Assembly (NCBI RefSeq): GCF_046119375.1
Contig: NW_027362772.1
Coordinates: 47,430,001-47,494,000, forward strand
Direction: 5' to 3'
DNA: 64,000 nt
DNA from: Phyllobates terribilis
Lineage: Eukaryota
Position numbers: made by a program. Below are positions 18,001-27,000 of this stretch, piece after piece. The number at the start of each line of letters is the position of its first letter. Position 1 is the first letter of the stretch.

Positions 18001-21000
18001 TCAGCTGGCATTATAAGCTGACATCAACCCCAACCCTATTACCCCCTGCCACCGCACCAGGGCAGCGTGGAAGAGCGAGGCTAAGTGCCAGAATTGGCGC
18101 ATCCTATGAATGCGCCATTTCTGGGGCGGCTGACGGCTGGTGTTTCTAGCCTGGGAGGGGGCCAATATTCATGGCTCCCTTCCTGGGCTATTAATATCAG
18201 CCCACAGCTGTCTGCCTAGCCTTTGCTAGCTATTAAATTAGGGGGACCCCACGTCATTTTTTTGGGGGGGTCCCCCATTTTAATAGCTAGTAAAGGCTAT
18301 GTATTCAGCTGGGGGCTGATATTAGTAGCCTGGGAAGCTCCGTGGGTATTACCCCCTTCCCAGGCTTCAAACATCTGCCCCAGCCGTCTGCTTAACCTCC
18401 GCTAGAGCCTAAAATTAAGGGGAACCCCACGCTAATTTTTTTAATAATAAATCCTTTATTTTAATACTAAATGACAAGTACAGTAACCAACACTATCACT
18501 GTACTTCATATATATGTGACTGACATGTTTCTATCTATCTAATCTATGTGTGATGCTCTATCTTTCTGTTCTAAATTGTCGGGTACCGCTGCTGAATTGC
18601 CGGCCGGCTTTTTTAAAGAGACAGTGCATGAAAACACTATTATTTTTTTAAATAAATCCTTTACACTAAATGACAAGTACAGTAAGCAACACTATCACTG
18701 TACTTATTATATATGTGACTGACATGTTTCTATCTATCTAATCTATGTGTGAAGCTCTATTCTTTCTGTTCTAAATTGTCGGGTACCGATGCTGAATTGC
18801 CGGCCGGCTTTTTTAAAGAGACGGTGCATGAAAACACTAATATTTTTTTTAATAAATCCTTTACACTAAATGACAAGTGCAGTAACCAACACTGTCACTG
18901 TGCTTCTTATATGTGTGACTGACATGTTTCTATCTATCTAATCTATGTGTGATGCTCTATTCCTTCTTGTCTAAATTGTCGGGTACCGGTGTATGCCGCT
19001 GCTGAATTTGCCGGCCGGCTTTTTTAAAGAGAGTGTCTTCTGAGCAGTTTGTCAGCTTTTGGACACCTTTGCAGGTGTTTTCTATGTGTTTCTATGTGTT
19101 TTTGTTTGCCTGCCATTGGTTTTAACGGTGTTCGACGGTGTTCTAAGGTGTTCGACGAACAGTTCGACGAACAGTTCCTCGAACATCCCGGTGTTCGACG
19201 AACCGAACCCGAACACTACGGGGGTGGCTCAACACTAGTTGTAATATTATTACGCAATGTTGGCTTTGCTCTGCTGCATGAAGCCAGGTACCTATATAAA
19301 AATGGATGGTTTATAGCGAATTGTAGCAGTAAATCCAACAACACCCACGGTCAATAGCCACAGTAGCATCTAAGCGGTTAGAAAGAGATAGAGGAAGAAG
19401 TGTCACATTCTCCAGAAAATGCAATTGTTGTACATTATAGATAAGATGCTTGGAAAGATATGTAGTAGAGACAATTTGATTTCTTGAATATTTTCAATTT
19501 TTTCACCCAAAACATTTAATTTTGTCCAAATCTACTAGAAAGTGCTCTGAAGCCTCCAATAACTCTGAAAAGATGTGTGCAACACTCAGAAGTCTCCTAG
19601 GACTGCATCAAGAACTTTTCATGCTTTTTAGCGCAAACTCAGCCTTAGCAATGTCATAGTGACCTTAACCAATGCAGCTAGAAGAAAACATAAGATTGGA
19701 GTTGTTGCAAATCGATTTGTTCCATCGGCCGCGACAGCGATCAGTTCTCACAGAAATTAAAAAGGGAGCAGTATCCACAGCTCTTCTTTCGATTATCCTG
19801 CTTGGCATGACGTTATAGTTGCAAAACAATACACATGTGACGTGGCGCCGCCATCAGGTGAGAGGTGATACTCCCTCTCCCACTGCAGTGTACAACAGAA
19901 TAGCATGTGCAAATCGATTTGCTCAAACTCTACACATAAACTTAGAAAATCAATGGCCCAAACAAACATTTTTAATTTTTTACATGAAAATTTTACATTT
20001 AAATTATTATTATTATTATTATTGTTGTTGTTGTTATTATTATTTATTGATTAAAATATTTTTTTTTCCTTGAAAATAAAAAGAAATTATTTTAAAAATA
20101 TACAATTTTTTTTATTTAAAAATACAGTTTGTCGTGACTAGTGTTGAGCCACCCCCGTAGTGTTCGGGTTCGGTTCGGTTCGTCGAACACCGGGATGTTC
20201 GAGGAACTGTTCGTCGAACTGTTCGTCGAACACCTTAGAACACCGTCGAACACCGTTAAAACCAATGGCAGGCAAACAAAAACACATAGAAACACATAGA
20301 AAACACCTGCAAAGGTGTCCAAAAGCTGACAAACTGCTCAGAAGACACTCTCTTTAAAAAAGCCGGCCGGCAAATTCAGCAGCGGCATACACCGGTACCC
20401 GACAATTTAGACAAGAAGGAATAGAGCATCACACATAGATTAGATAGATAGAAACATGTCAGTCACACATATAAGAAGCACAGTGACAGTGTTGGTTACT
20501 GCACTTGTCATTTAGTGTAAAGGATTTATTAAAAAAAATATTAGTGTTTTCATGCACCGTCTCTTTAAAAAAGCCGGCCGGCAATTCAGCATCGGTACCC
20601 CACAATTTAGAACAGAAAGAATAGAGCTTCACACATAGATTAGATAGATAGAAACATGTCAGTCACATATATAATAAGTACAGTGATAGTGTTGCTTACT
20701 GTACTTGTCATTTAGTGTAAAGGATTTATTTAAAAAAATAATAGTGTTTTCATGCACTGTCTCTTTAAAAAAGCCGGCCGGCAATTCAGCAGCGGTACCC
20801 GACAATTTAGAACAGAAAGATAGAGCATCACACATAGATTAGATAGATAGAAACATGTCAGTCACATATATATGAAGTACAGTGATAGTGTTGGTTACTG
20901 TACTTGTCATTTAGTATTAAAATAAAGGATTTATTATTAAAAAAATTGGCGTGGGGTTCCCCTTAATTTTAGGCTCTAGCGGAGGTTAAGCAGACGGCTG

Positions 21001-24000: not shown

Positions 24001-27000
24001 CATGCTTGCGCTCCTCACTGTCTCGCTGTGACGGCATCCAGATGAGCCGAGGTCATGTCCAATGAACTCGGCTCACCTCATGCACGTCACTGACAGCGTG
24101 GGAAAATTCTCACGCTGAAGTGCTGAGTGCAGGAGAATTCTCCCACGCTGTCAGTGATGTGAATGAGGTGGGCTCATGTCCAATGAACTCAGCTCACCTC
24201 CTGCACGTCACTGACAGCGTGGGAAAATTCTCCTGCAATCAGCGCTTCAGCGTGAGAATTTTCCCACGCTGTCAGTGACGTGCATGAGGTGAGCCGAGTT
24301 CATTGGACATGAACTCGGCTCATCTGGATGTCGTCACAGAGAGACGCTGAGCAGCGCAAGCAAGCCTGCGCTTCTCAGTGTCTGCGGGATGACAGGCTGG
24401 ATGGCAGCGTTCTGCTGCGGTCCAGCCTGTCATCTCGATGTAGCAGAGCTGAAGCTGTCGTGGGAACCATGGAAAGGTAAGGATGAGGTTGCTTTATTAT
24501 TTTTCTTTTATTGCAGGAGATCGTTGGCTTCAGCTGGAATGGGCGTGATGGTAAGTATGGTTTAATTTAGAACAATAAAGGATTGTGTCTTTATTTCAAT
24601 TAAAGGACTTTATTCTGGGTGTTTGTGTTTTTTTTAACTTTGACTATGGGGTTAGTAATGGGGGTGTCTTATAGACGCCTCTCCATTACTAACCTGGGCT
24701 TGATGTCAGCTGGCATTATAAGCTGACATCAACCCCAACCCTATTACCCCCTGCCACCGCACCAGGGCAGCGTGGAAGAGCAAGGCTAAGTGCCAGAATT
24801 GGCGCATCCTATGAATGCGCCATTTCTGGGGCGGCTGACGGCTGGTGTTTCTAGCCTGGGAGGGGGCCAATATTCATGGCTCCCTTCCTGGGCTATTAAT
24901 ATCAGCCCCCAGCTGTCTGCCTAGCCTTTGCTAGCTATTAAATTAGGGGGGACCCCACGTCATTTTTTTGGGGGGGTCCCCCATTTTAATAGCTAGTAAA
25001 GGCTATGTATTCAGCTGGGGGCTGATATTAGTAGCCTGGGAAGCTCCGTGGGTATTACCCCCTTCCCAGGCTTCAAACATCTGCCCCAGCCGTCTGCTTA
25101 ACCTCCGCTAGAGCCTAAAATTAAGGGGAACCCCACGCTAATTTTTTTAATAATAAATCCTTTATTTTAATACTAAATGACAAGTACAGTAACCAACACT
25201 ATCACTGTACTTCATATATATGTGACTGACATGTTTCTATCTATCTAATCTATGTGTGATGCTCTATCTTTCTGTTCTAAATTGTCGGGTACCGCTGCTG
25301 AATTGCCGGCCGGCTTTTTTAAAGAGACAGTGCATGAAAACACTATTATTTTTTTAAATAAATCCTTTACACTAAATGACAAGTACAGTAAGCAACACTA
25401 TCACTGTACTTATTATATATGTGACTGACATGTTTCTATCTATCTAATCTATGTGTGAAGCTCTATTCTTTCTGTTCTAAATTGTCGGGTACCGATGCTG
25501 AATTGCCGGCCGGCTTTTTTAAAGAGACGGTGCATGAAAACACTAATATTTTTTTTAATAAATCCTTTACACTAAATGACAAGTGCAGTAACCAACACTG
25601 TCACTGTGCTTCATATATGTGTGACTGACATGTTTCTATCTATCTAATCTATGTGTGATGCTCTATTCCTTCTTGTCTAAATTGTCGGGTACCGGTGTAT
25701 GCCGCTGCTGAATTTGCCGGCCGGCTTTTTTAAAGAGAGTGTCTTCTGAGCAGTTTGTCAGCTTTTGGACACCTTTGCAGGTGTTTTCTATGTGTTTCTA
25801 TGTGTTTTTGTTTGCCTGCCATTGGTTTTAACGGTGTTCGACGGTGTTCTAAGGTGTTCGACGAACAGTTCGACGAACAGTTCCTCGAACATCCCGGTGT
25901 TCGACGAACCGAACCGAACCCGAACACTACGGGGGTGGCTCAACACTAGTTGTAATATTATTACGCAATGTTGGCTTTGCTCTGCTGCATGAAGCCAGGT
26001 ACCTATATAAAAATGGATGGTTTATAGCGAATTGTAGCAGTAAATCCAACAACACCCGCGGTCAATAGCCACAGTAGCATCTAAGCGGTTAGAAAGAGAT
26101 AGAGGAAGAAGTGTCACATTCTCCAGAAAATGCAATTGTTGTACATTATAGATAAGATGCTTGGAAAGATATGTAGTAGAGACAATTTGATTTCTTGAAT
26201 ATTTTCAATTTTTTCACCCAAAACATTTAATTTTGTCCAAATCTACTAGAAAGTGCTCTGAAGCCTCCAATAACTCTGAAAAGATGTGTGCAACACTCAG
26301 AAGTCTCCTAGGACTGCATCAAGAACTTTTCATGCTTTTTAGCGCAAACTCAGCCTTAGCAATGTCATAGTGACCTTAACCAATGCAGCTAGAAGAAAAC
26401 ATAAGATTGGAGTTGTTGCAAATCGATTTGTTCCATCGGCCGCGACAGCGATCAGTTCTCACAGAAATTAAAAAGGGAGCAGTATCCACAGCTCTTCTTT
26501 CGATTATCCTGCTTGGCATGACGTTATAGTTGCAAAACAATACACATGTGACGTGGCGCCGCCATCAGGTGAGAGGTGATACTCCCTCTCCCACTGCAGT
26601 GTACAACAGAATAGCATGTGCAAATCGATTTGCTCAAACTCTACACATAAACTTAGAAAATCAATGGCCCAAACAAACATTTTTAATTTTTTACATGAAA
26701 ATTTTACATTTAAATTATTATTATTATTATTATTGTTGTTGTTGTTATTATTATTTATTGATTAAAATATTTTTTTTTCCTTGAAAATAAAAAGAAATTA
26801 TTTTAAAAATATACAATTTTTTTTATTTAAAAATACAGTTTGTCGTGACTAGTGTTGAGCCACCCCCGTAGTGTTCGGGTTCGGTTCGGTTCGTCGAACA
26901 CCGGGATGTTCGAGGAACTGTTCGTCGAACTGTTCGTCGAACACCTTAGAACACCGTCGAACACCGTTAAAACCAATGGCAGGCAAACAAAAACAAATAG

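What the first reader, a model, noticed from the sequence alone, without database searches (positions are those of the whole stretch)
19238..26849. Hybrid element with two right ends and mismatched TSDs: footprint of unequal crossover between palindromic transposons
The order is TSD1-A-TSD1-spacer-TSD2-[hybrid]-TSD1-spacer-TSD2-B-TSD2. This is what unequal recombination between B and A would give. A and B are inverted relative to each other, but their internal palindromy makes arms of A directly repeated in B. The result is a 6.7-kb tandem duplication that copies 901 bp of host DNA and creates a symmetric-ended element. Palindromic transposons could therefore drive duplications regardless of orientation. 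The few SNPs between copies mean a very recent event, or two haplotypes assembled in tandem.
Basis: partly seen in the sequence, partly recalled or inferred. Interest (0 to 1): 0.65.

Follow-up and report, generated by a model that had tools for sequence, protein, structure and literature searches.

The report
Transposon-mediated tandem duplication in frog DNA
Two neighbouring, oppositely oriented copies of a non-coding hAT transposon in a poison-frog genome appear to have recombined through their internal inverted repeats, which duplicated 6.7 kb and left a hybrid copy with two right ends; this is a clean example of an already known process.

Summary
Three ~5.5-5.8 kb non-autonomous hAT elements lie at 13779-19237 (A), 20139-25948 (H) and 26850-32526 (B, inverted). 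A and B each have a perfect 8-bp TSD. H has the right terminus at both ends and carries TSD2 on its left and TSD1 on its right. The 901-bp spacer occurs twice with 1 mismatch.

A fourth copy in the window, D (42661-53049), encodes the transposase and has its own perfect TSD. It authenticates both termini.

Site patterns fit one homologous exchange. Of 96 L-versus-R diagnostic columns, H's left arm has the R state at the first 11 and the L state at the last 85. Its outer part groups with B and the rest of H groups with A. The exchange lies in the subterminal arm, where A's L arm and B's R arm are direct repeats.

Alternative transposition is rejected: there is no new TSD, there are three copies, and the spacer is kept.

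A false tandem duplication made by the assembler cannot be excluded without reads (about 0.2).

A later ~0.9-kb gene conversion in A is inferred. The mechanism (NAHR with exchanged TSDs and a chimeric copy) is textbook, so interest is modest.

The parts
13771..13778 (.). TSD1 (GTTGTAAT), left of A
13779..19237 (+). Element A. Non-autonomous hAT, L terminus to R terminus, 5459 nt. Its interior is a long inverted repeat (arms about 14096-16069 and 16795-18788).
14933..15840 (+). Palindromic module P1 of A. It is 99.45% identical in direct orientation to P2 (17024-17932) but about 95% to its positional counterpart in H. Inferred gene-conversion tract.
19238..20138 (.). Spacer copy 1: host DNA, 901 nt including TSD1 (19238-19245) and TSD2 (20131-20138)
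   Evidence: no other copy in the window
20139..25948 (.). Hybrid element H, 5810 nt, with the R terminus at both ends. The left outer part comes from B; the remainder comes from an A-type copy.
20828..21848 (.). Interval that holds the exchange point. It lies between the last R-type diagnostic site (20827) and the first L-type diagnostic site (21849), and is probably within 20828-21537.
25949..26849 (.). Spacer copy 2, 901 nt including TSD1 (25949-25956) and TSD2 (26842-26849)
26850..32526 (-). Element B, 5677 nt, inverted relative to A (R terminus on the left, L terminus on the right)
32527..32534 (.). TSD2 (GTCGTGAC), right of B
42661..53049 (-). Element D, 10,389 nt. Transposase-encoding relative with the same termini and its own TSD GTGAGCAT (42653-42660 and 53050-53057). 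It shares only 148 nt (L, 92%) and about 205 nt (R, 89%) with A.
47249..50961 (-). Two transposase reading frames of D: 48586-50961 (zf-BED) and 47249-48517 (hAT dimerisation domain; matches Hermes transposase)

Best explanation
This is a real 6.7-kb tandem duplication made by non-allelic homologous recombination between two neighbouring copies of a non-autonomous hAT transposon.

A inserted at GTTGTAAT. A sister copy, B, inserted 885 bp away at GTCGTGAC in the opposite orientation. Each element carries ~2-kb internal inverted-repeat arms. As a result the L-side arm of A and the R-side arm of B, both on the left of their elements, are direct repeats.

In a misaligned pairing of sister chromatids or homologues, B's left arm paired with A's left arm. 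A crossover within H 20828-21848 joined B's outer left end to the rest of an A-type copy. The product is A - spacer - H - spacer - B, where H has two R termini and keeps TSD2 on the left and TSD1 on the right.

Later, or on the other parental allele, an ~0.9-kb palindromic module in A (14933-15840) was overwritten by its direct repeat 2.1 kb downstream.

Shown: anatomy, TSDs, termini, the single switch in H, and the grouping of copies. Inferred: crossover as the process, the order of events, and the reality of the duplication in the animal.
For: - TSD pattern and duplicated 901-nt spacer with 1 mismatch.
- H has two R termini; the L and R termini are authenticated by copy D, which has a perfect TSD and a hAT transposase.
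- Direct homology between A and B: 93.6% over 3359 nt. In the interval that holds the exchange there is 1 mismatch in 575 aligned positions plus one 24-nt deletion private to A (alignment columns 800-1400).
- Single switch in H's left arm: 11 R-type then 85 L-type of 96 diagnostic columns.
- 3 of 3 informative sites among the R-type arms pair H-left with B-left and H-right with A-right.
- In 3496 columns: 11 sites A=H≠B, 5 private to H, 4 private to A.
- Three element copies, one at each end of the duplication and one at the junction. This is the layout that Zhang et al. state NAHR predicts (passages of PMC3744419).
- Exchanged TSDs plus a chimeric copy is the criterion used for Galileo (passages of PMC2775673).
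- Inference: three >99% identical 5.5-kb copies assembled over 19 kb without any N imply long reads, and such reads would span the ~0.7-1 kb exchange interval.
Against: - No reads, depth or second assembly could be examined, so the duplication is not shown to exist in the animal.
- An N run lies 0.9 kb right of B (33463-33590; left untouched). It may mark assembly difficulty nearby.
- H's left inner part (alignment columns ~1400-2300) does not match present-day A. Instead it matches the L side of B, with 9 differences in ~1100 columns, and shares B's 154-nt array. The model therefore needs an extra conversion event in A, or an unconverted A allele as partner.
- In columns 1411-1724 H alternates between B-left and B-right states. 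This is either private change in B or patchy heteroduplex repair; the two cannot be told apart.
- The 0.23% divergence between copies equals plausible heterozygosity, so it is also what two haplotypes would show.
Confidence: 0.7

Rival explanations
1. Assembly artefact. The true locus is A - spacer - B, and the assembler placed the two haplotypes in tandem. It would have switched from B's left arm on one haplotype to A's left arm on the other, inside the near-identical ~0.7-kb stretch. The heterozygous module in A (converted versus unconverted) would have provided the bubble.
For: - The copy-to-copy differences are evenly spread and small: 11 substitutions and 2 indels in 5707 positions, and 1 in 901 in the spacer. 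Allelic variation would look like this.
- The two A-type left modules differ by ~5% and a 187-nt indel, which is the kind of heterozygous variant that splits assembly graphs.
- An N run lies 0.9 kb from B.
- False duplications from unmerged haplotypes are a documented class of assembly error (PMC9516828; search listing and start of abstract only).
Against: - The join needs a path that no real molecule supports. Reads longer than ~1 kb would contradict it.
- The 19-kb stretch with three >99% identical copies is gap-free, which short reads could not achieve (inference).
- The window's own protein is recorded on a 324-Mb sequence, so the assembly is chromosome-scale.
- Unmerged haplotype copies are, from my recollection and not from any call, mostly found at contig ends or beside gaps, not inside contiguous sequence.
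Confidence: 0.22
2. Homology-guided replication error (break-induced replication or template switching between B's left arm and A's left arm) rather than a reciprocal crossover. The product would be the same.
For: The product is indistinguishable in sequence. The patchy states in alignment columns 1411-1724 could reflect a heteroduplex or a switch zone. Such mechanisms are listed as alternatives for tandem duplications in PMC3744419 (passage).
Against: Nothing in the sequence favours it over crossover. There is no microhomology junction, insertion or template-switch scar; the join lies inside ~0.7-1 kb of near-identity.
Confidence: 0.06
3. Alternative (aberrant) hAT transposition using the two facing termini of A and B, as in reversed-ends or sister-chromatid transposition of maize Ac/Ds.
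For: Two hAT elements lie 885 bp apart with facing ends, and a transposase-encoding relative is in the same window. Ac reversed-ends transposition does make tandem direct duplications (PMC3744419).
Against: - H's termini are still joined to the original flanks, with 901 nt of identical flank on each side, and there is no new 8-bp TSD.
- The inter-element spacer is duplicated, not lost.
- Three copies are present, whereas the maize products lack one (passage).
- The facing ends are both R termini, not a 5'/3' pair.
- A symmetric RE/RE Hermes element showed no activity (PMC10368747 section 14).
Confidence: 0.02

Closest known systems
Ectopic recombination between Galileo (Foldback-like, long-TIR) transposon copies in Drosophila buzzatii (Delprat et al. 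2009, PMC2775673; passages read)
   Same: Two nearby copies in opposite orientation, exchanged target-site duplications and chimeric copies with a mapped switch interval are taken as proof of homologous exchange. The elements have long internal or terminal inverted repeats.
   Different: There the product was an inversion with two chimeric copies. Here it is a tandem duplication with one chimeric copy between two parental-type copies, because the exchange used the directly repeated arms. The superfamily is P rather than hAT, and the host a fly rather than a frog.
[quoted passage not shown]
   Same: hAT elements close together; a tandem direct duplication with an element at the junction.
   Different: The maize events are transposase-made. 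They have a new 8-bp TSD at the breakpoint, lack an element at one end, and lose the inter-element segment. None of these holds here. The three-copy layout found here is what that paper says NAHR would give.
Classical NAHR / unequal crossing-over between dispersed repeats such as Alu-Alu or LTR-LTR (recalled general knowledge)
   Same: Duplication of the segment between two repeats, a hybrid repeat at the junction, and a predicted reciprocal deletion.
   Different: The repeats are normally in direct orientation. Here the two elements are inverted, and the direct homology comes from each element's own inverted-repeat arms.
hAT superfamily, Ac/Hermes type
   Same: 8-bp TSDs that fit nTnnnnAn, short imperfect TIRs, subterminal short repeats, and a BED plus hAT-dimerisation transposase in the relative D.
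   Different: A, H and B carry no transposase. They share only 148 and ~205 terminal nt with D, and their interior is a ~2-kb-arm inverted repeat with nested palindromes and 121-, 154-, 166- and 200-nt arrays.

Membership tests
hAT superfamily transposon | 8-bp target-site duplication | tested here: met
   3 of 3 elements that have one L and one R terminus (A, B, D) are flanked by identical 8-mers, 8/8 each.
hAT superfamily transposon | Target preference 5'-nTnnnnAn-3' (stated for Hermes in PMC10368747, passage) | tested here: met
   GTTGTAAT, GTCGTGAC and GTGAGCAT: 3 of 3 fit.
hAT superfamily transposon | Short, imperfect terminal inverted repeats | tested here: met
   The L and R termini match at 9 of the first 12 positions in A, B and D.
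hAT superfamily transposon | Transposase with a BED zinc finger and a hAT C-terminal dimerisation domain in an element with the same termini | tested here: met
   In D: zf-BED E=7.9e-10 and Dimer_Tnp_hAT E=5e-15. Hermes transposase residues 412-525 match at E=1.1e-10. A weak collinear match to Hermes 130-239 has E=0.036. Exons were searched one by one.
hAT superfamily transposon | Intact catalytic acidic residues of the RNase-H-like core | not tested
   No alignment of the catalytic residues was made. The two reading frames were not joined.
NAHR (unequal crossover) duplication between repeats | Three repeat copies: one at each end of the duplication and one at the junction | tested here: met
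   A, H and B. The criterion is as stated in PMC3744419.
NAHR (unequal crossover) duplication between repeats | The junction copy is chimeric, with a single switch between parental types | tested here: met
   11 R-type then 85 L-type of 96 diagnostic columns. The groupings agree.
NAHR (unequal crossover) duplication between repeats | The junction copy carries one flank (TSD) from each parent, and no new TSD | tested here: met
   TSD2 on the left and TSD1 on the right, each followed by the same 901-nt spacer.
NAHR (unequal crossover) duplication between repeats | Existence of the duplication in the organism and of the reciprocal deletion | not testable with these tools
   No reads, no second haplotype and no population data. 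No eukaryotic genome collection was available.
Alternative transposition product (Ac-type RET/SCT) | New 8-bp TSD at the rearrangement breakpoint, and termini cut away from their old flanks | tested here: not met
   H's ends remain joined to the parental flanks.
Foldback-like element (long inverted-repeat arms reaching the termini) | The inverted repeats extend to the very ends | tested here: not met
   In A and B the outer ~320 nt (L) and ~450 nt (R) are not homologous to each other: 235 of 392 aligned positions match in alignment columns 0-560. Only H, the recombinant, has arms reaching the tips: 1857 nt at 98%.

The most novel reading that the evidence does not exclude
Non-autonomous hAT elements with kilobase internal inverted repeats may act in dendrobatid frogs as orientation-independent recombination substrates. 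On this reading any two nearby copies, direct or inverted, can yield duplications, deletions and symmetric-ended (R-R, L-L) dead-end copies, and such local amplification contributes measurably to the very large, repeat-rich genomes of poison frogs. The conversion tract in A and the hybrid H would then be two footprints, within one 19-kb stretch, of frequent exchange inside this family.
Probability: 0.15. Interest if true: 0.5.

Novelty: new member of a known kind. Interest (0 to 1): 0.3.

Why it matters
If real, the locus is an unusually legible natural record of transposon-mediated duplication. Both parents, the hybrid, the intact TSDs and a transposase-encoding relative all sit in one 40-kb stretch.

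It shows concretely that internal inverted repeats let oppositely oriented copies produce a duplication rather than only an inversion. The principle is already understood for long-TIR elements, so the value is illustrative. It is also practical: such loci are places where assemblies of giant frog genomes need read-level validation.

Tried and rejected
- **Alternative transposition** (reversed-ends or sister-chromatid). Rejected on the TSD and flank pattern, the copy number and the end types.
- **H as an independent third insertion.** Rejected because its flanks are copies of the spacer.
- **Exchange in the central palindrome.** This was my first reading of the BLAST end points at 21993/22163. 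The six-arm alignment rejected it: the gap there is a 154-nt-array indel, and the inner left half of H is L-type.
- **H's inner left part as a recent copy of B's L side.** Not favoured. There are 9 differences in ~1100 columns, 6 private to B and 3 private to H, interleaved with shared derived sites.
- **Coding capacity in A, H and B.** No reading frame of 130 aa or more.
- **Other copies of A's interior or of the spacer in the window.** None beyond D's termini.
- **Rfam.** Only an 18S fragment inside D.
- **Assembly technology.** A look at a published poison-frog draft assembly to judge this gave nothing usable.
- **Not possible here:** read depth, a search for other family members, or empty sites in other genomes. 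Supplementary figures of the cited papers were not seen.
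Full report
**Setting**

The window looks eukaryotic. It has one run of 128 N at 33463-33590, which I left alone.

A single-exon reading frame at 9780-10916 (-) is a rhodopsin-type receptor. Its best named relatives are chemerin-like receptors of dendrobatid frogs: Ranitomeya imitator 88%, R. variabilis 82%, Phyllobates terribilis 81%. The last lies on a contig of the same length (324,123,578) as the one recorded for the window's own protein. 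I therefore take the window for a poison-frog chromosome, not human.

**Observation**

Self-comparison and direct reading of the junctions give three related elements.

| Element | Coordinates | Length | Left flank | Right flank |
|---|---|---|---|---|
| A | 13779-19237 | 5459 nt | GTTGTAAT | GTTGTAAT |
| H | 20139-25948 | 5810 nt | GTCGTGAC | GTTGTAAT |
| B (inverted relative to A) | 26850-32526 | 5677 nt | GTCGTGAC | GTCGTGAC |

- The 19-nt right terminus is found 5 times with no mismatch: A right, both ends of H, B left, and 42661 (0.02 expected).
- The 19-nt left terminus is found 3 times with 0-2 mismatches: A left, B right, and 53031-53049 (0.00 expected).
- The spacer including both TSDs is 901 nt in both copies and differs at one position.
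- The tandem repeat 15458-21993 / 22163-28704 is 99.27% identical over 6543 nt.

**What the elements are**

The extra terminus matches define a fourth element, D (42661-53049, 10,389 nt). It has the orientation of B and is flanked by GTGAGCAT on both sides. It is inserted into a G-rich 14-nt minisatellite.

D carries two long reading frames on the minus strand.
- 48586-50961 has a BED zinc finger (E=7.9e-10).
- 47249-48517 has the hAT dimerisation domain (E=5e-15).
- The second frame matches Hermes transposase residues 412-525 (E=1.1e-10). The first matches Hermes 130-239 weakly (E=0.036).
- The closest database proteins come from other dendrobatids, at 70-89% identity.

The two frames are out of frame with each other and 68 nt apart. 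I searched them one at a time and left out the joined step.

A shares with D only the terminal 148 nt (92%) and about 205 nt (89%), and no frame of 130 aa or more lies in A, H or B. So A, H and B are non-autonomous hAT derivatives.

Further hAT features:
- All three TSDs fit nTnnnnAn, the Hermes target pattern (passage of PMC10368747).
- The termini match at 9 of the first 12 positions.
- Both ends carry 8-11 copies of GTTCG/CGAAC in their first ~135 nt, against 0.41 per 250 nt in the window. I infer these are transposase-binding subterminal repeats.

The interior of A is a long inverted repeat with arms at about 14096-16069 and 16795-18788. It contains nested ~908-nt palindromic modules, P1 at 14933-15840 and P2 at 17024-17932, and arrays of 121, 154, 166 and 200 nt.

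**Testing the crossover model**

I aligned the six half-elements from terminus to centre (3027 columns).
- The outer ~560 columns separate L-type ends (A-left, B-right) from R-type ends (A-right, H-left, H-right, B-left). H-left matches B-left at 540 of 543 positions and B-right at 235 of 392.
- In the homologous part, 96 columns separate L-type from R-type arms (A-left = B-right ≠ A-right = H-right = B-left). H-left has the R state at the first 11, up to column 706 (window 20827). It has the L state at the remaining 85, from column 1728 (window 21849). That is one switch.
- Two sites shared only with B-right (21538, 21694) suggest the exchange lies before 21538.
- Between columns 800 and 1400, A-left and B-left differ by 1 mismatch in 575 aligned positions plus a 24-nt deletion private to A. 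This near-identical direct repeat is the likely substrate.
- More broadly, A and B align in direct orientation at 93.6% over 3359 nt.
- Among the four R-type arms, the 3 informative sites all pair H-left with B-left and H-right with A-right. There are no conflicting sites. Private events number 3 (B-left), 3 (A-right), 2 (H-right) and 1 (H-left).
- Over the inner and right 3496 columns there are 11 sites with A=H≠B, 5 private to H and 4 private to A.

H is therefore B's outer left end joined to an A-type remainder, as an unequal exchange predicts.

**A complication**

H's inner left part (about columns 1400-2300) does not match today's A. It carries a 154-nt array and variants otherwise seen only on the L side of B, with 9 differences in ~1100 columns.

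Today's A has at that place a module that is 99.45% identical, in direct orientation, to its own P2. It is only ~95% identical to the counterpart in H.

Because B is an independent insertion and has the 154-array form, that form is ancestral. A has most likely been converted by P2. This happened either after the duplication, or on one allele before an exchange between homologues.

In columns 1411-1724 H alternates between B-left and B-right states. This may be private change in B or patchy repair of a heteroduplex. With A overwritten there, the two cannot be separated.

**Age**

Outside the converted module, the two copies of the unit differ by 11 substitutions and 2 indels in 5707 positions (15718-21424 versus 22423-28135). 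That is 0.23%, against 0.43% between A and B (15 events in 3496 columns).

So the event is not necessarily very recent. If the exchange was between homologues, the differences could be inherited allelic variation, and the figure is then only an upper bound.

**Rivals**

- *Alternative transposition.* It is excluded for four reasons. H's termini are still attached to the parental flanks with no new TSD. The spacer is duplicated rather than lost. Three copies are present, where the maize reversed-ends products lack one (passages of PMC3744419). The facing ends are both R termini.
- *Replication-based homology-guided switch.* It would give the same sequence and cannot be separated from a crossover here.
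- *False tandem duplication from two haplotypes.* This is the serious rival. The even, low divergence and the heterozygous-looking module in A fit it, and an N run lies 0.9 kb away. Such errors are documented (PMC9516828, listing and abstract start only). Against it, the join would need to be made inside about 0.7-1 kb of identity. The 19-kb stretch with three >99% identical copies is gap-free, which implies reads long enough to contradict a false join (inference). A published short-read draft of a related frog has scaffolds of at most 5.2 Mb (passages of PMC12208295). That told me nothing usable about this assembly.

I put the real duplication at about 0.7 and the artefact at about 0.2.

**Comparison with what is known**

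Using exchanged TSDs plus a chimeric copy as proof of ectopic recombination is exactly what was done for Galileo in Drosophila buzzatii, where the outcome was an inversion (passages of PMC2775673).

The present case differs in outcome, a tandem duplication from inverted copies, and in superfamily. The feature that makes it possible, long internal inverted repeats, is the same.

In Hermes, a symmetric RE/RE element showed no activity and LE/LE little (section 14 of PMC10368747). By analogy H is probably a dead-end copy, though both ends of this family carry the same subterminal motif.

hAT sequence is abundant in another poison frog: 255 Mb in Oophaga pumilio (passage of PMC6278860). I did not search the literature specifically for this frog family of elements, so I make no claim that it is undescribed.

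**Verdict**

The case is a new instance of a known process. Its reality in the animal awaits read-level evidence.

**Unchecked**

I could not check other genomic copies, empty sites, read depth or population alleles. The supplementary figures of the cited papers were not seen.

Noticed in passing
42661-53049: A 10.4-kb hAT element (D) with a perfect 8-bp TSD (GTGAGCAT) and two long uninterrupted transposase reading frames (791 and 422 codons, zf-BED and hAT dimerisation). It may be a young or active autonomous copy. The two frames are 68 nt apart and out of frame, which could be an intron or a frameshift; this was not resolved.
   Followed up: partly
35811-42658 and 53067-58134: A G-rich minisatellite with a 14-nt unit (GGGTGAGCGTGTGA-like), GC skew ~0.74 and about 12 kb in all. 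It looks like one array split by the insertion of D, whose TSD is itself array sequence.
   Followed up: partly
43108-43471: A fragment of eukaryotic 18S rRNA inside D (Rfam SSU_rRNA_eukarya, 70 bits). It includes the conserved 530-loop region and has large internal deletions relative to the model.
   Followed up: partly
44562-45233 and 45768-46373: Reading frames inside D, between its R terminus and the transposase gene. One has a reverse-transcriptase domain (RVT_1, E=1.4e-14). The other has a weak Tc3-type transposase HTH (E=3.1e-5, below Pfam's cut-off). Probably nested fragments of other mobile elements.
   Followed up: no
46935-47204 and 51066-52132: Related 110-nt tandem arrays (2.4 and 9.6 copies) in the same orientation on both sides of D's transposase gene.
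   Followed up: no
9780-10916 (-): An intact single-exon chemerin-like receptor 1 gene (7tm_1, E=2.8e-55) about 2.9 kb left of element A. It lies outside the duplicated segment.
   Followed up: partly
13779-13915, 19100-19237, and the ends of D: Dense clusters of GTTCG/CGAAC at both element ends: 8-11 copies in the first ~135 nt, against 0.41 per 250 nt in the window. Likely subterminal transposase-binding repeats.
   Followed up: partly
4902-6544 and 11761-12488: A 1.6-kb self-complementary stretch (77% identity between arms) and a 146-nt tandem array (5 copies). Both are unrelated to A, H and B by BLAST.
   Followed up: no
33463-33590: A run of 128 N, 0.9 kb to the right of element B. It was located only and not examined further.
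   Followed up: no
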